A stretch of 64,000 nt of DNA from the NCBI GenBank assembly GCA_002774425.1, contig PEYJ01000009.1, positions 3,134 to 67,133 of the forward strand. Direction: 5' to 3'. The notes under the pieces are model-generated. The model worked only from the letters and a program-made list of their open reading frames with translations. It was not told the origin of the DNA and ran no database searches. Source of the DNA: Parcubacteria group bacterium CG08_land_8_20_14_0_20_48_21. GTDB taxonomy: Bacteria; Patescibacteriota; Patescibacteriia; UBA1544. A program made the position numbers and the translations under genes. Shown piece by piece: positions 1-64,000 of this stretch. Every line of letters begins with the position of its first letter. Within the stretch, counting starts at the first letter, position 1.

Positions 1-1
1 C

Positions 2-172
2 GGAATGGTTGCCGGAGCAAGTGAACTAGGTACGGACACTTCCGTTACGCTACCACCACTAGCGTTCTCAATGTGGGATAAACTCAAAAAATACGCGGGA
101 GCTGCGCTGATTGTTATCGGGTTTTTCGGTATACTCTTTGCACTGTTCGCGGCGCCAAAAGATAAGGTCTAA
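2..172 (+). CDS. 3' end of a hypothetical small membrane protein (partial; hydrophobic C-terminus ...ALIVIGFFGILFALFAAPKDKV*)
   Basis: Open frame from the window edge to TAA at 170-172; hydrophobic TM-like segment. No homology recognised. Confidence 0.3.
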   Translation, partial: GMVAGASELGTDTSVTLPPLAFSMWDKLKKYAGAALIVIGFFGILFALFAAPKDKV

Positions 173-266
173 ATCATATTCCCTTCCCCTTCGCTCACCT
201 ACGCAAGCTTTCGTTGGATGTCTCATTACGAATTGAGAGTCCAAAAAGAGGTAAAAAAAGAGCTCG

Positions 267-692
267 GCGCGAAGCGACGAGCGAAAGAAAGGTGTGGGGT
301 TGGACCTGTGAACCCGTCGGTCAGCAGACCCAACCCCACTATAAGCGCGGGGGGTGTTTGGGGAGGGACAAACGCTGCCCCAACGCTTATAAATGGCGAG
401 GAGAGTGTTCTCGTCAACAGGGGGAGGAGGGACCTGTTGCGAAATTGCACTTTCCTCGCCAAGCGAGCGAAGGAAGAATGTATCAAAGAGCTTGGATACT
501 CTAGCACGTGCACAAAAGCATGTCAAGACCTCTGGCACAACCGACACACTTTTGCTAGACTGGTTTGTATGCGCAACACAACTATCCAACTTGCCATGAT
601 GATGGCTCCGCCGAACGGGGGTTGTGGTTCTTACGCATAATGTACAAACAGTAATTCACCCACACCCCTCGTAGAGGGATTTTTCATTATTT
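267..692 (+). promoter_or_regulatory. structured non-coding leader (riboswitch-like three-helix module at ~395-460 plus 10-bp perfect inverted repeat at 293-302/330-339) ending in a hairpin+T-tract just before the downstream start codon
   Basis: P1-like pairing GGCGAG(395-400)/CUCGCC(455-460) encloses hairpin GAGA-GUGU-UCUC (401-412) and hairpin CAACAGG-GGGAGGAGGGA-CCUGUUG (415-439). GC-rich hairpin CCCTC-GTA-GAGGG (666-678) followed by ATTTTTCATTATTT. The ORFs overlapping this region in several frames are not protein-like. Confidence 0.3.
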
Positions 693-693
693 C

Positions 694-1500
694 GTGTATG
701 CAACAACTATGCTGCTAACCATTATCAATGACTGCCGCGATATGAACGCCGCGGGACGGCAAGCAACGCGCGCCGCAGCACTGCTCAAGGGAACGGTACA
801 CTTTATCGGCGTTGCGAATGATTTGGAGGCAAGCGGCAATCTTGTTGACATGCTTGATGCGTTCGGCGATACGCAAGGCGCCGTGCTGGTCAATGTCGCG
901 CCAAGAAATGGCAAAGCGAAGCTGTGGCATAACGGCACGCCGTTCGGCTATTTTTACTACAAAAAAATTCTTGTTGTGGCAAGTGTTGATGGGCTTACCC
1001 TTTCACTGGTTAAAAAGCTTGGGCTTGCTGATGAACTCAAGGTGCTGGATATAGCGTCATGCCTGCATTTTTTGGAGAAGCGTGAACAGCTCACCGAAAA
1101 CCTCGCATCACGTATACACGAAAGTCAGTTCAGAAGCTATGATTTTCTTCCCCGAGCGGCTGATTGGATTTTGCGCGGGCGTGAGATGCCCTATAGCGTG
1201 CTTTCCCTACAAGCTATCGCGGACGCTCGTCCTTGTGTGTGGTGGGTGGATAATTTCGGCAACTGCAAAACAACGCTGTTGGAGGAAGAAGTGCTCAAAC
1301 GCAAAGATGCGCGTGGCGCCATACCGACAGCGTTCGGCGCGCTGCCTTACTACCCGCGCCTCAAAGATGTACCGGATGATACGGTAGCGTTGGTTACCGG
1401 AAGTTCGGGATTAGAGAATAAGCAATTTGTTGAAATTGTGGCACAGGGTGCAAGCGCCGCACAGGTATTAGGCATTTCTTCGGGAGATGTGATGTGGTAA
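694..1500 (+). CDS. DUF62 / SAM hydroxide adenosyltransferase (fluorinase-chlorinase fold)-like protein; GTG start at 694 or ATG at 709
   Basis: Motifs resembling the DUF62 family: ...VVASVDGLTLSLVKKLG... (cf. APNNGLLT) and FRSYDFLPRAADWILRG (cf. F-x-x-R-D-I-F-A-P-V-A-A-H-L-x-x-G). Assignment from memory of the family consensus only. Confidence 0.45.
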   Translation: MYATTMLLTIINDCRDMNAAGRQATRAAALLKGTVHFIGVANDLEASGNLVDMLDAFGDTQGAVLVNVAPRNGKAKLWHNGTPFGYFYYKKILVVASVDGLTLSLVKKLGLADELKVLDIASCLHFLEKREQLTENLASRIHESQFRSYDFLPRAADWILRGREMPYSVLSLQAIADARPCVWWVDNFGNCKTTLLEEEVLKRKDARGAIPTAFGALPYYPRLKDVPDDTVALVTGSSGLENKQFVEIVAQGASAAQVLGISSGDVMW

Positions 1501-1623
1501 TGCGTTCCTATTTCTTTTTACCCCAAAAATCCATACGATTTAGTCGCCGAGCGAAGCGCCGTGCCCTTCCATAGCTTTATGCGAAGGAGCGAGGCGAACC
1601 AAAACCGCTTGCAAATTCCTTAC

Positions 1624-1708
1624 TGGTACCGGGGGCGGGAATCGAACCCGCATGAGTTGCCCCAACGGATTTTAAGTCCGTCGCGTCTACCAATTCCGCC
1701 ACCCCGGC
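1624..1708 (-). tRNA. tRNA-Leu(TAA), CCA encoded, long variable arm
   Basis: Reverse complement GCCGGGGTGGCGGAATTGGTAGACGCGACGGACTTAAAATCCGTTGGGGCAACTCATGCGGGTTCGATTCCCGCCCCCGGTACCA; anticodon loop CTTAAAA. Confidence 0.9.
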
Positions 1709-1798
1709 ATACTAGCTGCACTCCTACGCTATCACGAGAATTTTCCAAGGTCAACTGCACTTGAAACTTTTTTCTCCTCTGCTATACTGGCTAGGCGC

Positions 1799-1875
1799 GC
1801 GGGAATAGCTCAGTTGGCTAGAGCGCTTCCTTGCCAAGGAAGAGGTCGCGGGTTCGAATCCCGTTTCCCGCTCCA
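1799..1875 (+). tRNA. tRNA-Gly(GCC), CCA encoded
   Basis: GCGGGAATAGCTCAGTTGGCTAGAGCGCTTCCTTGCCAAGGAAGAGGTCGCGGGTTCGAATCCCGTTTCCCGCTCCA; anticodon loop TTGCCAA. Confidence 0.9.
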
Positions 1876-2177
1876 AGAAATAACGAGCCGCCCAAAAGGC
1901 GGTTTTGTAATTGTTTCGGCGGAAAATATGGTCAGGATAAGGTTGTATGCCCACACCTCATACTTACCATTCCTAAGCGGTTGGTCACCCAATGCGCGGA
2001 AAGCTACGCGCCGGATCGGTAAGCATCGGCATTGATTGAAAAAAACATACGGTAATCACACAACAGTCGTAAACCTGCCCATACATACACTTCGCTTACT
2101 GTTTGCACCATTCGGCATTGTTCTCTTTCACGCACCGTAGTTGCTTTGGCGCCATATTTCCCGTACAATACATCTAT

Positions 2178-3197
2178 ATGGAGGAACGCGTACTGAACCC
2201 GAAACTCACCGAAGAAGAGGCGGCACTTGACCAAACACTCCGTCCGCAGCGATTGGCAGAGTACATAGGTCAGAACAAGATCAAAGAAAATTTGTCCATA
2301 TTTATTGATGCCGCAAAAAAACGCAAAGAAGCGCTGGATCACGTGCTGCTCTACGGCGGTCCGGGTTTGGGCAAGACAACCCTCGCACACATTATCGCGC
2401 GCGAAATGGGTGTCGGCATCAAAGCGACCTCCGGCCCCGCAATAGAGCGCGCGGGAGATTTGGCGGCTATTCTCACCAATCTCCAGGAAGGCGATGTGCT
2501 GTTTATTGACGAAATCCATCGCCTCAACAAGATTATTGAGGAAGTGCTCTATCCGGCTATGGAAGATTACGCGCTGGACATCGTCATCGGTAAAGGACCC
2601 TCCGCAAGAACACTGCGCTTGGACTTACCGCGCTTTACTCTCATCGGCGCCACTACCAAAATGAGCCTGCTCTCAAGCCCTTTGCGCGACCGGTTCGGCA
2701 ATATTCTGCGGCTGAATTTTTATGACCAGGATGATATTAAAAAAATAGTTGAGCGATCGGCGCGCATTCTGGATATGTCGGTTGACGCGGAATCAGCGGT
2801 TGAAGTTGCCAAGAGATCCCGCCGCACGCCGCGCGTTGCCAATCGACTCTTAAAGCGCGTGCGTGATTTTTCGCAAGTGCGCGGCGATGGTACGCTGACA
2901 CTTGATATTACCCGTAAAGCCCTCCACTTGCTTGAGGTGGATGAATTCGGGTTGGATGAAATTGACCGGCGTATTTTGGAAGCGATTATTCAAAAATTCC
3001 AAGGAGGACCCGTTGGCCTCTCCACACTCGCTGCCGCAACCGCAGAAGAAATTGCCACAATTGAAGATATTTATGAGCCGTTTCTGATGCAAATCGGTTT
3101 TTTGCACCGTACCCCAAGAGGCCGCGTTGCTACCGAGCTCGCTTATGAGCATTTGGGTTTCTCCGTTCCGGATTCCCTCCAAAACAAACTCTTGTAG
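2178..3197 (+). CDS. ruvB: Holliday junction branch migration ATPase RuvB
   Basis: Walker [10 protein letters not shown], Walker B DEIHRL, full-length RuvB-like sequence. Start taken at MEERVLNP (ATG 2178) rather than the upstream ORF-track start. Confidence 0.92.
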
Positions 3198-8640: not shown

Positions 8641-8874
8641 TTTGATCTTCTTTTATTTTTGTTTTTTAAGCAAATTTTTGACTTATTACTCATAGTATAG
8701 CACCTATACACTCAAGAATCAAGTTTTTGTAACGTACCTGTTGCCAAATGAACGTGGTTGTGTTAGGGTAGCATGCACTATCTACTGCATGAAAATTGAA
8801 AGGAGGAGAAATTTTTTGTGCAAGCTGCGGTTATGCCCTTTGAAAATTTGCACCATCGACCAAGGGAGCGCGTC

Positions 8875-21548: not shown

Positions 21549-21819
21549 AGGGATTGATGCGAGTAAAAAGTTACTAAAAAAAGATCAGGTGGCAGAAATG
21601 CATCAATATTTACAGGAAAAGTGCTGGGAGTATAGCACACTTTTGCACAAGCGCAAATGAGTGGCACGGTAAAAAGTTTATAAGGTGTGCATAAGGTGTG
21701 GAAAAAACTTGATGCGTACAACTAATACAACCAAGTGGAAAAATAATGACCTGACCTCATTGTTGACATAAAAGGTTTTTTTCTGTACGCTACATCTTGT
21801 ATATTAGCTCACTCAATTT
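21549..21819. promoter_or_regulatory. dnaA/rpmH divergent promoter region with DnaA boxes
   Basis: TGTGGAAAA at 21697-21705 (8/9 of TGTGGATAA) and AGTGGAAAA near 21733. Candidate rpmH promoter TTGACA (21763-21768)-17-TACGCT. Confidence 0.45.
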
Positions 21820-25149: not shown

Positions 25150-25382
25150 AGTTCAAATACTATTAAATAAATGACGTTCAGGAGTGGACGTGTGAGTAAT
25201 TTTAGATCATTGAGAGCTTATTGTCAAAGTGGATTTTATCTTTTATACTACCAGAGCCATGTAGATATATATGCATTCTAAATAAGCCGCAAAGTTACTT
25301 AGAATACAATGACCTCATGTGGTAGTACCGGAAAGTTTGTAAGATAAAGATTGTACATTTTACGACACATAAATAATTAAAT

Positions 25383-25398
25383 TGTTCCACGTGGAACA
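25383..25398. promoter_or_regulatory. parS site 1 (ParB-binding), perfect palindrome TGTTCCACGTGGAACA embedded in 32-bp perfect palindrome 25375-25406
   Basis: Matches the parS consensus TGTTNCACGTGAAACA (15/16; fully symmetric variant). Confidence 0.75.
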
Positions 25399-25453
25399 AT
25401 TTAATTATTTTCTCCGTGATACTATCTTCGCCTATCTTCTCGCCGGAACCCTT

Positions 25454-25702: not shown

Positions 25703-25778
25703 GGGCCGTTGGCGCAGCTGGTAGCGCGCTTCCATGGCATGGAAGAGGTCACCGGTTCGATCCCGGTACGGTCCACCA
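25703..25778 (+). tRNA. tRNA-Ala(GGC), CCA encoded, G3-U70
   Basis: GGGCCGTTGGCGCAGCTGGTAGCGCGCTTCCATGGCATGGAAGAGGTCACCGGTTCGATCCCGGTACGGTCCACCA. Confidence 0.9.
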
Positions 25779-26327
25779 AAATACCATAAAATAATATTTA
25801 TATGCATTTCGAGGATAAATTCAAAATTAAGCTAAATCAGAACCTATGGGTTTTAGTGGCTGGTTTCTTGAGTTTAGGATTTTCGGAATATTATGACTTG
25901 GAGAAATTAAGATTCTTATCTTTGGTGTTCAGCATATTTGCTCTGATTTCTGTCGTCGTAACTCTACTCTTTTATACAATTTGATATTGCAAGAATAAGC
26001 TTGAAAAATAGTGGCTTGGTGCATCAGAAGTTCCGTTCAAAAAAGGTTCGCGCAAATGCTAAAATAATACCACCAAATCATATGGTTAACGGACAAAAAA
26101 AGCTATTATTGCTCTCATTATACTTTTTGTGATATATTTTTTGTACGTTTTTGTTACTAAAATGTACTACTGCGGAAACGCGCCTTTCTATATCCCTAAC
26201 ACATATGATTGTGTATAAACTTGTCTATTCCGCCCAGGTTACTGGGCGGAGATTCATCTTTATTTTGTTTCAACTAACACGAATGTGATCAACTAAATTA
26301 GTGTTGGTAAATCATACACATAAAAAA

Positions 26328-26343
26328 TGTTCCATGTGGAACA
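26328..26343. promoter_or_regulatory. parS site 2, TGTTCCATGTGGAACA (one central mismatch) within AT-rich palindromic arms
   Basis: 15/16 identity to site 1; A-tract/T-tract flanks AAAAAA...TTTTTTT. Confidence 0.6.
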
Positions 26344-26504
26344 TTTTTTTATCAATGTGAATCATAAATGTGTAAAACATGTGTACAACTTATTTTAAAA
26401 ATTAATTATTAACTAATATTAGCCAGTATTATTTTATCTAGCTATAGGGATTTGTGGATAGGTATAATAGTGTACTTTATATTCTTGAATTGACTATATG
26501 CAAT

Positions 26505-26520
26505 TGTTCCACGTGGAACA
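26505..26520. promoter_or_regulatory. parS site 3, perfect TGTTCCACGTGGAACA within 24-bp perfect palindrome 26501-26524
   Basis: CAATTGTTCCACGTGGAACAATTG. Confidence 0.75.
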
Positions 26521-26636
26521 ATTGAGATAGAGCAATAGTTCTTTTTGCGCATAGCGATAAAAATAAAATTAAAGTGTAAGGAAGATGAAATAAATTTAGA
26601 TTTTGTCACATATTATAATATATGCCATTTTCAAAT

Positions 26637-26652
26637 TTTTCCACGTGGAAAA
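26637..26652. promoter_or_regulatory. parS-like site 4, TTTTCCACGTGGAAAA within 24-bp perfect palindrome 26633-26656
   Basis: Symmetric two-position variant of parS (G2T/C15A); core TTCCACGTGGAA conserved. Confidence 0.5.
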
Positions 26653-26707
26653 ATTTTAGTTCTAGTGTGTCGTAAAATTAACTATAGCGGTGTATAACTC
26701 TTGTACA

Positions 26708-26736
26708 TTGACGTAACTTATGAGGTTGTTTATACT
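26708..26736 (+). promoter_or_regulatory. sigma70-type promoter for trxA: TTGACG-17-TATACT
   Basis: -35 at 26708-26713, 17-nt spacer, -10 at 26731-26736, 45 nt upstream of trxA ATG. Confidence 0.6.
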
Positions 26737-26780
26737 TGATGAGGCGCAAAAATGTTACTTTAACTCCCTAAATCATTCCT

Positions 26781-27104
26781 ATGTCAGAAATTACTCTTAC
26801 CGATCAAAATTTTGCTTCCGAAGTTTTACAGTCAAAAGAGCCAATATTAGTTGATTTTTGGGCTCCATGGTGCGGACCTTGTCGCATTCTTGGTCCCGTA
26901 ATTGAGGAAATAGCTCAAGAAACACAAAACAAGGGAATAAAAGTAGGCAAGCTGAATGTGGATGAAAATCCGAACATAGCAGGAAACTACAATGTCATGA
27001 GCATACCAACAACCATGGTGTTTAAGGGTGGAAAACCCGTGGAACAGTTTGTAGGTGTCCAGCCGAAACAGGTTTTGGTAAAAGCTCTTGAAAAGGCAAA
27101 ATAA
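26781..27104 (+). CDS. trxA: thioredoxin
   Basis: WCGPC active site, 107 aa. Confidence 0.92.
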   Translation: MSEITLTDQNFASEVLQSKEPILVDFWAPWCGPCRILGPVIEEIAQETQNKGIKVGKLNVDENPNIAGNYNVMSIPTTMVFKGGKPVEQFVGVQPKQVLVKALEKAK

Positions 27105-39334: not shown

Positions 39335-39393
39335 ATATTGTTATACTACGCGTTTTTTATTGCATGCACAAGACTGCGAAAGAAATATAGATG

Positions 39394-39421
39394 CCCCCGT
39401 CCGATGAAAATCAGACGGGGG
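39394..39421 (-). terminator. rho-independent terminator of the upstream paralog (CCCCCGTC-12 nt-GACGGGGG, U-tract on minus strand)
   Basis: 8-bp GC stem followed on the minus strand by ATCTATATTTCTTT. Confidence 0.55.
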
Positions 39422-39434
39422 CGTTGGTTTGTCT

Positions 39435-50130: not shown

Positions 50131-50490
50131 ATGATCTTTCATAATCCTTGGAAAAGCTCCAAGGAAAAGCGTTCATAACAGGGTTTTGAATGCTTTTCCC
50201 TTCTCTACTCTTCGTTAAGGGTACGGAAGCCGACCCGGTACCCGCATAAAAAACAAAAATAAAAGTAAAAGGTTGCTTGTAAGAGTAAAAATATTTCTTA
50301 CCGGTAACCATAAGAATGGTAGAGAAGTTGCTTTTCCAGTCGGCAAAAAGCTCTTTGAGTTCTTATTACTCAAAATCTTTGCTGCCGCATGGCAACGTGC
50401 GGTTACAAAGTGAGGTAAGAGCTCTGGGGCGCAATCGGCCTATTTATAAACAAAGGGGCGCAGATTGCGCCCCTTTGTTGTTTTTTGGGA
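50131..50490 (+). ncRNA. candidate ~360-nt small RNA ending at a very strong terminator (putative promoter TTGAAT-17-TATGCT at 50096-50124)
   Basis: 13-bp GC-rich stem 50449-50461/50467-50479 followed by GTTTTTT. Only poor overlapping ORFs. No tmRNA, RNase P or SRP signature motifs found. Confidence 0.3.
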
Positions 50491-50631
50491 AGGGTTGATT
50501 GCTTTTCTGTTTGTGTCTGCTATACTTAAAGAACAGAAATGAGACACAGGAAGTTGGAGGCAAGAGCGTTGCGTGCTCACCCACACCAGTGTTTTGCTTC
50601 TGACCATCAATGTTTTACTTCTCTTAATATT

Positions 50632-60371: not shown

Positions 60372-62338
<1,967 letters not shown>

Positions 62339-62730: not shown

Positions 62731-62954
62731 GACGCTCGTTTTCATGGATTTCAGCATGTAGCTCACAAGCAATGCTTGTTGGCTGCTCCACTGAAAATTC
62801 AGAAACCGGAAATACTGATTGTACGTTGACAACTACATACAACAAGAATCAACACATTGAAAACTATCTAAATAAGAGTTTTCAAATCTAGTCAGAGAGA
62901 TGCAAATCTCTCAGTCGAGCAAGTACGACATACAATTGCAATACGTATGTCAGG

Positions 62955-64000
<1,046 letters not shown>

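What the first reader, a model, noticed from the sequence alone, without database searches (positions are those of the whole stretch)
267..692. Riboswitch-like structured leader upstream of a SAM-enzyme-like (DUF62) gene
The 520-bp spacer before the DUF62-like gene is not coding: its ORFs overlap in three frames and are compositionally odd. It folds into discrete modules. One is a compact three-helix element: P1 GGCGAG/CUCGCC encloses a GAGA-GUGU-UCUC hairpin and a 7-bp hairpin with an 11-nt purine loop, GGGAGGAGGGA. The CUUUCCUC strand of P1 can alternatively pair with that loop, so two mutually exclusive folds exist. A second module has a perfect 10-bp inverted repeat GUGGGGUUGG...CCAACCCCAC. 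A GC hairpin plus U-tract (666-692) ends 1 nt before the GTG/ATG of the gene. Two direct repeats of AAGCGA(CGA)GCGAA(A/G)GAA flank the modules. This is the architecture of an aptamer plus terminator expression platform, and the downstream gene family binds SAM. I could not match it to a known riboswitch class. It shares the GGAGGGAC block with SAM-I but not the rest.
Basis: partly seen in the sequence, partly recalled or inferred. Interest (0 to 1): 0.55.

Follow-up and report, generated by a model that had tools for sequence, protein, structure and literature searches.

The report
Methionine leader-peptide attenuator, not riboswitch
The gene for a SAM-cleaving-type enzyme in this tiny uncultured (Parcubacteria) bacterium appears to be switched by a short upstream mini-gene full of methionine codons followed by a terminator, while the eye-catching hairpins further upstream are a separate, probably oppositely transcribed, small RNA rather than a riboswitch sensor.

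Summary
The hairpins, repeats and GC hairpin plus U-tract are real, and 241-480 is the most structured stretch of the window. The riboswitch reading is only partly supported.

The spacer holds two units.

(1) 553-708, + strand. This is a classical leader-peptide transcription attenuator:
- an extended -10 box (TGCTAGACT) lies 7 nt before a 23-codon ORF (569-640, MRNTTIQLAMMMAPPNGGCGSYA);
- an antiterminator (615-627 with 660-672) excludes the terminator (666-678 plus U-tract);
- the DUF62-fold gene starts at ATG 709.

The same design (Met-cluster mini-ORF, antiterminator starting 11-13 nt after the last Met codon, terminator 14-38 nt before the gene) occurs in 8 of 11 orthologous Parcubacteria loci, with covariation. 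I found no report of a methionine-codon attenuator.

(2) 253-491. The three hairpins lie upstream of that promoter. They are absent from every orthologous leader and match no Rfam family. On the minus strand they are bracketed by the organism's consensus promoter (526-498) and a terminator (284-253). This is a candidate orphan sRNA of about 235 nt with unknown function.

All of this is computational. The window's own terminator is weak.

The parts
553..561 (+). Extended -10 promoter box TGCTAGACT, 7 nt before the leader AUG. The leader mRNA is probably leaderless. The -35 region (TGGCAC, 533-538) is a poor match.
   Evidence: TGCTAKANT occurs 6 times in 64 kb. All six are intergenic and point at a gene or tRNA. 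A -10-like box lies 6-7 nt before the leader ATG in L004, L069, L072 and L078.
569..640 (+). Leader ORF of 23 codons, MRNTTIQLAMMMAPPNGGCGSYA*. The three consecutive Met codons are at 596-604. It forms the C-terminal tail of the spurious 140-aa ORF 218-640.
   Evidence: Homologous Met-cluster mini-ORFs occur in 7 other orthologous loci. Only 0-1.1% of dinucleotide shuffles of those eight upstream regions give such an ORF.
606..620 (+). Small hairpin CUCCG-CCGAA-CGGGG directly after the Met codons. It is a possible region 1:2 (anti-antiterminator) that a ribosome stalled on the Met codons would cover.
   Evidence: Listed by the hairpin scan. It is not part of the MFE folds, so it is weak and inferred.
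615..627 (+). Region 2, the 5' strand of the antiterminator (GGGGGUU.GUGGU). It starts 11-13 nt after the last Met codon.
   Evidence: pairs 615-621 with 666-672 and 623-627 with 660-664. The register is the same as in relatives on alignment A6.
660..672 (+). Region 3, the 3' strand of the antiterminator. It overlaps the 5' arm of the terminator (666-670).
666..692 (+). Intrinsic-terminator-like hairpin CCCUC-GUA-GAGGG (666-678) followed by AUUUUUCAUUAUUU. The stem ends 30 nt before ATG 709.
   Evidence: Orthologous loci have far stronger terminators at the same place (-11.7 to -25.3 kcal/mol).
709..1500 (+). Regulated gene: a 263-aa divergent protein with the DUF62 fold (SAM hydroxide adenosyltransferase / halogenase superfamily).
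   Evidence: Pfam SAM_HAT_C is borderline. NCBIfam (R)-SAM hydrolase matches 7 of 14 relatives. The AlphaFold2 model has pLDDT 94. The top 20 Foldseek PDB hits are all DUF62/SalL/fluorinase, TM 0.59-0.68.
498..526 (-). Minus-strand promoter: TTGACA (526-521), 17-nt spacer ending in TGC, TAGAGT (503-498). It diverges from the leader promoter.
   Evidence: 10 of 12 matches, TG present. It matches the organism's own promoter pattern TTGAnn-N14-TGCTATACT seen at four control sites.
253..491 (-). Candidate small RNA of about 235 nt. It holds three stem-loops (461-394, 391-340, 339-294) with C-rich loops (CCCUCCUCCCC, UCCCUCCC) and C/U-rich single-stranded stretches. It is single-copy and lineage-specific.
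   Evidence: z = -8.7. No copy elsewhere in the window or in relatives. No Rfam match. The strand is inferred from the promoter and terminator only.
253..284 (-). Minus-strand intrinsic terminator GCUCG.CGC-UUC-GCG.CGAGC (284-264) followed by UCUUUUUUU.
   Evidence: -11.6 kcal/mol, z = -3.1. The terminator part of an unrelated Rfam sRNA model aligned here. There is no U-run on the + strand.
268..289 (.). First copy of the direct repeat (CGCGAAGCGACGAGCGAAAGAA). On the minus strand it forms most of the terminator hairpin.
   Evidence: D3, D5.
457..475 (.). Second copy of the direct repeat (CGCCAAGCGAGCGAAGGAA). On the minus strand it spans the last bases of stem-loop 461-394 and the adjoining part of the single-stranded 5' region of the candidate sRNA.
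   Evidence: D3, D5.

Best explanation
The spacer 173-708 is composite.

(A) 553-708, + strand: a ribosome-mediated (leader-peptide) transcription attenuator that senses methionine through Met-tRNA availability.
- Transcription starts at or next to the AUG of a 23-codon leader ORF (569-640).
- If Met-tRNA is plentiful, the ribosome runs through region 2 (615-627) to the stop codon. Region 3 is then free to form the terminator (666-678 plus U-tract), and the DUF62-fold gene stays off.
- If Met-tRNA is scarce, the ribosome stalls on the MMM codons (596-604). Its leading edge ends just before region 2. Region 2 pairs with region 3 (660-672), the terminator cannot form, and RNA polymerase reads into the gene.
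- DUF62 enzymes hydrolyse SAM to adenosine plus L-methionine. Induction under methionine shortage would therefore recover methionine from SAM.

(B) 253-491: the three-hairpin module is not part of this leader. It is most likely an independent, divergently transcribed minus-strand small RNA (promoter 526-498, terminator 284-253) of unknown function.

Shown: the ORF, the helices, their mutual exclusivity, the spacing, the conservation and covariation, and the promoter-motif distribution.
Inferred: actual transcription start sites, ribosome stalling, the response to methionine, the enzyme's substrate, and the sRNA's strand and existence.
For: Attenuator:
- A Met-cluster mini-ORF plus terminator occurs upstream of the orthologous gene in 8 of 11 distinct loci from Kaiser-, Wildermuth-, Moran-, Komeilibacteria and others. 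Examples are MVRIAGTDTNMMMGMMT..., MLKTPQTNTNMMSMMT... and MKKNQLNNMSMMHMMT....
- Such an ORF arises in 0-1.1% of shuffles of those eight upstream regions. Only 3 other Met clusters occur in all six frames of the 64-kb window.
- The segment after the last Met codon is complementary to the terminator's 5' arm, with z = -2.1 (window), -3.9, -5.0, -5.6, -5.4, -6.8 and -7.3.
- In co-transcriptional folds region 3 pairs with a region 2 that starts 11-13 nt after the last Met codon in 7 of 8 loci.
- Matched region 2/3 pairs beat mismatched ones (permutation p = 0.0017).
- On alignment A6 the antiterminator is 77% paired, against 49-61% when slid. It has 5 pairs changed on both sides, and its covariation score exceeds all 500 shuffles. 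The terminator shares its columns 134-145.
- The terminator ends 14-38 nt before the gene's ATG in 7 of 8 loci. No room is left for another promoter, so the gene must be expressed by read-through.

Promoters: TGCTAKANT occurs 6 times, always intergenic and oriented toward a gene.

Gene: DUF62 fold.

Module as a separate unit:
- It is absent from orthologous leaders and from 78 kb of relatives' DNA.
- A minus-strand promoter and terminator bracket it.
- There is no + strand U-run after any of the hairpins.
Against: - There are no expression data, so every transcription start and end is predicted.
- In the window itself the attenuator is the weakest of the family. It has three Met codons, a 5-bp terminator (-5.7 kcal/mol) and antiterminator z of only -2.1 (p about 0.04).
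- At equilibrium the strong terminators of relatives win over the antiterminator, so the model needs kinetic (co-transcriptional) control.
- Free RNA also forms the antiterminator. A convincing region 1:2 element is therefore lacking, and an untranslated leader would read through.
- Three orthologous loci lack the leader (L073, L077, L001).
- Candidate leader peptides have failed mutational tests before (Streptomyces ilvB, as reviewed in PMC1262725).
- The enzyme is only 13-17% identical to characterised DUF62 proteins. It lacks a Pfam N-domain hit, so SAM hydrolysis is unproven.
- For the sRNA, G-U asymmetry does not settle the strand. Hairpin 1 favours the minus strand and hairpins 2 and 3 favour the plus strand. 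No homolog exists to test covariation.
Confidence: 0.68

Rival explanations
1. One long + strand leader (about 267-692) acts as a metabolite riboswitch, for example for SAM, SAH or adenosine. The hairpin modules form the aptamer and 666-692 is the expression platform.
For: The module is highly structured. Purine-rich loops could pair alternatively with CUUUCCUC (-12 kcal/mol). G-rich tracts at 291-298 and 348-357 are complementary to 659-671, next to the terminator (I7 and I9). No + strand terminator separates the upstream gene from the module.
Against: No Rfam family matches even at E <= 10. The module is absent from all ten other orthologous upstream regions, whereas the leader ORF and terminator are conserved. 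The module lies upstream of the promoter box 553-561. The three-helix 'aptamer' fold is 18 kcal/mol above the MFE. A pattern scan of metagenome contigs for the two loops found only chance hits.
Confidence: 0.06
2. The three hairpins act on the + strand as a 3'-UTR element of the upstream 1028-aa LTD/PKD surface-protein gene, either as exonuclease-blocking stabiliser hairpins or as a transcriptional insulator. They are not a separate RNA gene.
For: The upstream gene ends at 172 with no recognisable + strand intrinsic terminator before 666. The + strand fold is 12 kcal/mol more stable than the - strand fold. Hairpins 2 and 3 contain G-U pairs only on the + strand.
Against: The consensus-quality promoter and the hairpin plus U7 terminator both face the minus direction and exactly bracket the module. 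Hairpin 1 has its extra G-U pairs on the minus strand. No similar module follows other genes in the window.
Confidence: 0.2
3. The Met-rich mini-ORF does not sense tRNA charging. It could be a ligand-dependent nascent arrest peptide (TnaC or SpeFL style), a small functional peptide, or an untranslated AUGAUG RNA motif. The hairpin plus U-run could then be only the terminator of upstream transcription.
For: Residues besides Met recur, such as T-x-N before and T after the cluster. Free RNA forms the antiterminator without a ribosome. In L069 the terminator also follows an upstream gene closely.
Against: The only strictly shared peptide feature is the Met cluster. The C-terminal similarity coincides with region 2 RNA pairing. 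Region 2 sits at a fixed 11-13 nt after the last Met codon, which fits a ribosome footprint. In L072 the upstream tRNA has its own terminator and the leader its own promoter. There is no room for a promoter between terminator and gene.
Confidence: 0.12
4. The hairpin module is a DNA-level relic, such as a decayed mobile element or MITE flanked by imperfect direct repeats, or a recombination site. It would have no RNA function.
For: Imperfect direct repeats flank it. It is lineage-specific and absent from relatives. One population polymorphism (395 G/T) breaks a stem pair.
Against: It is single-copy in 64 kb, with no related sequence in any fetched locus. There are no terminal inverted repeats and no transposase. 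The promoter and terminator placement is unexplained by this model. It is otherwise invariant across 7 population contigs.
Confidence: 0.1

Closest known systems
Classical leader-peptide transcription attenuators of amino-acid operons (trpL, hisL, pheL, thrL, leuL, ilvL/ivbL; Rfam Trp_leader, His_leader, Thr_leader, Leu_leader)
   Same: Both have a short ORF with clustered codons for the sensed amino acid. Both have mutually exclusive 2:3 antiterminator and 3:4 terminator helices, with region 2 inside or just after the ORF, and a U-tract terminator immediately before the regulated gene. The logic is the same: starvation leads to a stall, which leads to read-through.
   Different: The regulatory codon is Met (AUG), which has not been reported for classical attenuation in the literature I could search. 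The regulated gene is a single salvage or degradative enzyme, not a biosynthetic operon. The host is Patescibacteria/CPR. The leader mRNA appears leaderless. The region 1:2 element is weak or absent. No Rfam leader family matches.
SAM riboswitches (SAM-I/S-box RF00162 and other SAM classes) and Met-specific T-box leaders
   Same: These are cis-acting terminator/antiterminator leaders that control methionine/SAM metabolism genes. The T-box also reads tRNA charging.
   Different: There is no aptamer or T-box Stem I/specifier architecture. No covariance-model match is found even at E <= 10. Sensing is through translation of a mini-ORF.
DUF62 / SAM hydroxide adenosyltransferase, (R)-SAM hydrolase (PH0463 2WR8, MJ1651 2F4N, TM 2ZBU), with the SalL chlorinase and FlA fluorinase
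   Same: The two-domain fold matches over the full length (Foldseek E 4e-10 to 5e-7, TM 0.59-0.68). There is a C-terminal-domain Pfam match and an NCBIfam (R)-SAM hydrolase match in relatives.
   Different: Identity is only 13-17%. There is no Pfam N-domain hit and no PDB hit by sequence at E <= 0.001. The family forms a distinct Patescibacteria clade (1358 homologs). Activity and stereoselectivity are untested.
Bacterial trans-acting sRNAs with C-rich loops that pair with Shine-Dalgarno regions (RsaE/RoxS, 6C RNA)
   Same: The candidate minus-strand RNA has its own promoter and intrinsic terminator. It has stem-loops exposing CCCUCC-type loops and C/U-rich linkers.
   Different: It is much longer (about 235 nt). 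It has no sequence or CM similarity to these families and no conservation outside one species. Its strand and expression are unverified. The organism's genes often lack an obvious SD, so the target logic is uncertain.

Membership tests
Riboswitch (SAM-I or any Rfam class) | Covariance-model match to a curated aptamer family | tested here: not met
   cmscan of the window at gathering thresholds found nothing in 1-1600. A scan of 100-800 at E <= 10 gave only SECIS_5 (E 8.1) and a Burkholderia sRNA terminator (E 5.7).
Riboswitch (SAM-I or any Rfam class) | The aptamer is conserved, with covariation, upstream of orthologous genes | tested here: not met
   The module 294-461 is absent from the upstream regions of 10 orthologous loci. 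CM R1 finds no match in 142 kb. The loop-pattern scan of metagenome contigs gave only chance hits.
Riboswitch (SAM-I or any Rfam class) | Ligand binding changes the structure or termination | not testable with these tools
   This needs in-line probing or in vitro termination assays.
Leader-peptide (ribosome-mediated) transcription attenuator | A short ORF with clustered codons of one amino acid | tested here: met
   Window 569-640 has MMM. Seven relatives carry 3-5 Met codons within 3-7 consecutive codons. The null rate is 0-1.1% per locus.
Leader-peptide (ribosome-mediated) transcription attenuator | An intrinsic terminator between the leader ORF and the regulated gene, with no room for another promoter | tested here: met
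   All 8 loci have one. The stem ends 14-38 nt before the ATG in 7 of them. The window's is weak (-5.7 kcal/mol).
Leader-peptide (ribosome-mediated) transcription attenuator | An antiterminator mutually exclusive with the terminator, with its 5' strand placed where a ribosome stalled at the regulatory codons leaves it free | tested here: met
   Duplex z = -2.1 to -7.3 in 7 of 8 loci. Region 2 starts 11-13 nt after the last Met codon in 7 of 8. Covariation is seen on A6, and the permutation test gives p = 0.0017.
Leader-peptide (ribosome-mediated) transcription attenuator | A region 1:2 (anti-antiterminator) that gives termination when the leader is not translated | tested here: inconclusive
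   Small hairpins follow the Met codons in several loci (window 606-620). MFE folds of the free nascent RNA still form 2:3.
Leader-peptide (ribosome-mediated) transcription attenuator | Expression responds to the supply of the cognate charged tRNA, and mutating the regulatory codons abolishes the response | not testable with these tools
   This needs reporter or in vitro coupled assays.
DUF62 / SAM hydroxide adenosyltransferase superfamily | Pfam N-terminal (PF01887) and C-terminal (PF20257) domains above the cut-off | tested here: inconclusive
   Only SAM_HAT_C matches, at 24.9-25.0 bits against a cut-off of 25.5. All 14 relatives match at E < 0.01, best 7e-10. There is no N-domain hit.
DUF62 / SAM hydroxide adenosyltransferase superfamily | The two-domain DUF62 fold | tested here: met
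   The AF2 model has pLDDT 94.3 and pTM 0.91. The top 20 PDB matches are all DUF62, SalL or fluorinase, with probability 1.00 and TM 0.59-0.68.
DUF62 / SAM hydroxide adenosyltransferase superfamily | Catalytic Asp-Arg-His triad and SAM hydrolysis to adenosine plus methionine | not tested
   A structure-based residue mapping was not done. Activity needs an enzyme assay.
Independent bacterial sRNA gene | Own promoter and own intrinsic terminator on the same strand, with no ORF of coding quality | tested here: met
   The promoter TTGACA-N17-TAGAGT with TGC matches the genome's motif. The terminator is -11.6 kcal/mol plus U7. The minus-strand ORFs score as non-coding.
Independent bacterial sRNA gene | Conservation or covariation in relatives, or a detected transcript | tested here: not met
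   No homolog was found in any fetched locus. Seven population contigs differ only at 395.

The most novel reading that the evidence does not exclude
The Met-cluster leader is a working sensor of Met-tRNA charging. That would make it the first methionine-specific classical attenuator and the first cis-regulatory RNA switch family described for Patescibacteria/CPR. It would also show that the CPR-specific DUF62-fold enzyme is induced by methionine starvation to recover methionine (and adenosine) from SAM. In addition, the divergently transcribed 235-nt RNA, with four anti-Shine-Dalgarno-like tracts, would be a new RNA class sharing a bidirectional promoter region with the attenuator.
Probability: 0.45. 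Interest if true: 0.72.

Novelty: new variant of a known kind. Interest (0 to 1): 0.6.

Why it matters
Classical attenuation is a textbook mechanism, known for Trp, His, Phe, Thr, Leu and Ile/Val. Methionine genes are instead known to be controlled by S-box/SAM riboswitches, T-boxes or proteins (PMC1262725). A conserved Met-codon attenuator would add a new amino-acid specificity. It would also be a rare example of gene regulation deciphered in the uncultured, metabolically reduced Candidate Phyla Radiation.

The finding also gives regulatory evidence on an open question. The physiological role of DUF62 SAM hydrolases 'still has to be confirmed' (bioRxiv 10.1101/2025.08.29.672840). Induction by methionine shortage would point to methionine recovery from SAM.

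Practically, the 140-aa 'hypothetical protein' annotated here is very probably a mis-call that swallows the 23-codon leader peptide.

Tried and rejected
1. Rfam at gathering thresholds on the whole window, and at E <= 10 on 100-800, gave no relevant family.
2. One metagenome-contig scan with the two purine loops (GGGGAGGGAC-N40-69-GGAGGAGGGAC) gave 64 loci.
3. A genome-contig scan with the DUF62-like protein found only two relatives at 47-48% identity. L001 has no leader and L002 is cut at the gene start.
4. A covariance model of the three hairpins (R1) was searched against the window and 11 relatives' loci. Only self matches were found.
5. blastn of 173-560 against the window and loci found no second copy.
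6. The 140-aa ORF was tested as a real gene. It has no homolog in 1.84 billion representatives. It and all other spacer ORFs have non-coding codon usage.
7. I tested whether the candidate sRNA mimics region 3 and pairs with region 2 of the attenuator. The pairing is not better than for other G-rich 19-mers or shuffles, so the idea was rejected.
8. A second Met-cluster mini-ORF lies at about 45166 (-), in the spacer between an integrase gene and the divergent S15 gene. It starts about 440 nt upstream of the integrase start and is not followed by a terminator placed just before the gene as in the DUF62 leaders. I judged it to be chance.
9. Equilibrium MFE folds with ribosome masks did not separate the two states, because strong terminators dominate. 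Co-transcriptional (truncated) folds were used instead.
10. A viral-contig scan for more orthologs found none. A PDB search by sequence found nothing at E <= 0.001, and this was superseded by the fold search.
11. Population contigs were examined for covariation. There is only one SNP in the region, at 395.
12. SRP, 6S, RNase P and tmRNA identities for the module were considered. There is no CM or ARAGORN support.
Full report
**Setting.** The window comes from an uncultured Parcubacteria (Patescibacteria/CPR) bacterium.
- A 3.8-kb stretch is identical to GCA_001873525.1 contig MNZI01000032.1. The 263-aa product of the gene is the protein deposited for 'Parcubacteria group bacterium CG2_30_48_51'.
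- The spacer runs from the stop of a 1028-aa LTD/PKD surface-protein gene (172) to the DUF62-like gene.
- By homology the gene starts at ATG 709 (MLLTIINDC...), not at GTG 694.

**Observation.**
There are three adjacent inverted repeats (294-339, 340-391, 394-461), flanking direct repeats, two GGAGGGAC blocks, and the CCCUC-GUA-GAGGG hairpin with a U-rich tail.
- The structure is far beyond chance. Single hairpins have z = -4.4 to -6.8, the segment 250-495 has z = -8.0 (+) and -8.7 (-), and it is the top-ranked stretch among 1065 sliding windows.
- The spacer ORFs are non-coding by codon usage.
- The 140-aa ORF that JGI annotated has no homolog in 1.84 billion representative proteins.
- Three details need correcting. 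The three-helix junction is 18 kcal/mol worse than a single long hairpin. The terminator alone is weak. No Rfam family, SAM-I included, matches even at E <= 10.

**What orthologous loci show.** The lineage is sparsely sampled. Apart from 99%-identical strain variants, the best relative of the protein is 61% identical. I fetched the upstream regions of ten further orthologs.
- None contains anything like the hairpin module. A covariance model of the module finds only itself in 142 kb.
- What recurs is a short ORF with a methionine cluster, followed by a hairpin plus U-run just before the gene. The peptides are:
  - window: MRNTTIQLAMMMAPPNGGCGSYA
  - L004: MLEIFRHNRAMMEMMALKTGGSFSCT
  - L069 (Kaiserbacteria): MVRIAGTDTNMMMGMMTSAYEGAFLRN
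  - L072: MLKTPQTNTNMMSMMTQKRGCFSRI
  - L074 (Wildermuthbacteria): MRQQMFMIMGMTNLFPRKGRRFAV
  - L075 (Moranbacteria): MKKNQLNNMSMMHMMTCENRGWFFVLSKV
  - L076: MSFVFNFQKSSLTMMAMMMKLPGKAGFKFI
  - L078 (Komeilibacteria): MVQITRININIMEMMTLKNRGRLSRI
- That is 8 of 11 distinct loci. Two of the three exceptions have a tRNA gene directly upstream.
- Such an ORF appears in only 0-1.1% of dinucleotide shuffles of those eight upstream regions. The whole 64-kb window holds just three other Met clusters in any frame.

**Attenuator anatomy.**
- In each locus the RNA just downstream of the last Met codon is complementary to the 5' arm of the terminator. Duplex z-scores are -2.1 (window), -3.9, -5.0, -5.6, -0.4, -5.4, -6.8 and -7.3.
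- I folded the nascent transcript up to the terminator loop. The terminator's 5' arm then pairs with this 'region 2' in all eight loci. Region 2 begins 11-13 nt after the last Met codon in seven of them. That is the distance at which the leading edge of a ribosome stalled on those codons would leave it free.
- The stop codon lies 4-15 nt beyond region 2. A ribosome that does not stall therefore covers region 2 and lets the terminator form.
- Matched region 2/3 pairs are better than mismatched ones (permutation p = 0.0017).
- On a MAFFT alignment of the eight leaders the antiterminator is 77% paired, against 49-61% when slid. It has five pairs changed on both sides and a covariation score above all 500 shuffles. 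The terminator uses the same 3' columns 134-145 and is 72% paired.
- The terminator stem ends 14-38 nt before the gene's ATG in seven loci. The gene can therefore only be expressed by read-through.
- In the window the parts are:
  - Met codons 596-604
  - region 2 at 615-627
  - region 3 at 660-672
  - terminator 666-678 plus AUUUUUCAUUAUUU

  This is the weakest member of the family.

**Promoters.**
- The motif TGCTAKANT occurs six times in the window. All six are in intergenic DNA and point at a gene or tRNA. The four control sites are preceded by a -35-type box (TTGAAA, TTGATT twice, TTTGCG).
- One copy (553-561, +) ends 7 nt before the leader AUG. Four relatives (L004, L069, L072, L078) also have a -10-like box 6-7 nt before their leader AUG. 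The leader is therefore probably a leaderless mRNA, and the hairpin module lies upstream of its promoter.
- The other copy (506-498, -), with a perfect TTGACA -35, points the opposite way into the hairpin module.
- The module ends, on the minus strand only, with GCUCG.CGC-UUC-GCG.CGAGC followed by UCUUUUUUU.
- No minus-strand protein gene exists there. The simplest reading is a divergently transcribed RNA of about 235 nt with three stem-loops, C-rich loops (CCCUCCUCCCC, UCCCUCCC) and C/U-rich linkers.
- This is inference. G-U asymmetry is mixed, no homolog exists, and seven population contigs differ only at position 395.
- I tested whether this RNA could pair with region 2 of the attenuator and found nothing above background.

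**The regulated gene.**
- Sequence evidence for DUF62 is thin. Pfam SAM_HAT_C scores 24.9 bits against a cut-off of 25.5. There is no N-domain hit and no PDB hit by sequence. Seven of 14 relatives match NCBIfam (R)-SAM hydrolase.
- A confident AlphaFold2 model (pLDDT 94.3) matches only DUF62 SAM hydrolases, SalL and fluorinases among its top 20 PDB hits (TM 0.59-0.68, 13-17% identity).
- It is therefore a divergent, CPR-specific branch of the DUF62 fold.
- Characterised DUF62 enzymes hydrolyse SAM, preferentially the inactive (R)-epimer, to adenosine and methionine. Their physiological role is still debated. Induction by methionine shortage would fit methionine recovery from SAM.

**Comparison with the known.**
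- The design is that of trp/his/thr-type attenuators. It differs in several ways: Met is the regulatory codon, a single salvage-type gene is the target, the mRNA appears leaderless, region 1:2 is weak or absent, and the host phylum has almost no described regulation.
- Seven of the eight full-text searches bore on this and found no report of a methionine leader-peptide attenuator or of regulation of DUF62 genes.
- A comparative study lists methionine as controlled by S-box riboswitches rather than attenuators. The same study warns that predicted leader peptides can fail mutational tests (PMC1262725).

**Verdict.**
- The riboswitch interpretation is only right in that a terminator-based leader controls the gene.
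- The sensor is most likely a methionine-codon leader peptide, a new variant of a known mechanism that is conserved across Parcubacteria.
- The hairpins are a separate, orphan, probably antisense-oriented small RNA.

Noticed in passing
window 1780-1788, 8694-8702(-), 21629-21637(-), 50518-50526, plus 498-506(-) and 553-561: An organism-specific extended -10 promoter motif, TGCTAKANT (TGCTATACT at the four control sites). At the four control sites it is preceded by a -35-type box about 14 nt upstream (TTGAAA, TTGATT twice, TTTGCG). All six copies in 64 kb are intergenic and point at a gene or tRNA.
   Followed up: partly
window 2164-2180 and 50518-50541: RuvB (TACAAT 8 nt before its ATG) and a DksA/TraR-like gene (-10 box 12 nt before its ATG) also look leaderless or nearly so. 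Neither the DUF62-like genes nor their leaders show a Shine-Dalgarno sequence.
   Followed up: no
window 39340-40580: This is the second most structured stretch of the window (120-nt windows with z = -6.9, -5.6, -5.4, -5.0). It has several perfect 11-13-bp hairpins. It is covered only by orphan ORFs (349 aa on -, 149 aa on +) with no Pfam hit and no Rfam hit. It could be an unusual gene or a large unknown RNA.
   Followed up: partly
window 50341-50520, 25321-25440 and 26161-26340: These are further strongly folding intergenic stretches (z = -4.9 to -6.8). One lies just before the DksA-like gene's promoter, one before the tRNA-Arg/Ala/Ala cluster, and one in the gap of about 1 kb at 25778-26781. 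None has an Rfam match.
   Followed up: no
window 60680-62338 and 62951-64000: The 23S rRNA gene is preceded by a Cpn60/GroEL gene, not by a 16S gene. No SSU rRNA is found in the window, so the rRNA genes appear unlinked.
   Followed up: no
window 395 (and 2834): These are the only polymorphisms in window 1-3000 among the six P0122 population contigs. 395 G/T breaks the second base pair of hairpin 394-461, and 2834 C/T lies in ruvB. A seventh strain contig (L003) shares 395 G/T and has three further differences in this range, at 22, 1143 and 2270.
   Followed up: yes
window 218-640: This ORF is annotated in public records as a 140-aa hypothetical protein. It is very probably a mis-call, and its last 23 codons are the leader peptide.
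   Followed up: yes
L076 1900-2000: In the ADurb.Bin316-type Parcubacteria locus, about 100 nt with two more GC-rich hairpins (CUCCCUUUGCGAAAGGGAG and CCUCCCCUUUCAAAAAGGGGAGG) lie between the attenuator terminator and the gene. This may be an extra regulatory layer or inserted repeats.
   Followed up: no
L073 2891-2976 and L077 1865-1940: Two orthologs lack the Met leader and instead sit directly behind a tRNA gene (tRNA-Ser, tRNA-Ala). L077 has a terminator-like hairpin between the tRNA and the gene. Expression there may depend on read-through from the tRNA promoter.
   Followed up: no
window 45070-45170 (-): A small ORF with WMMVM lies in the 490-nt spacer between a phage-type integrase gene (43918-44724, -) and the divergent S15 gene, about 440 nt upstream of the integrase start. 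It is not followed by a terminator placed just before the gene as in the DUF62 leaders, and I judged it coincidental.
   Followed up: partly
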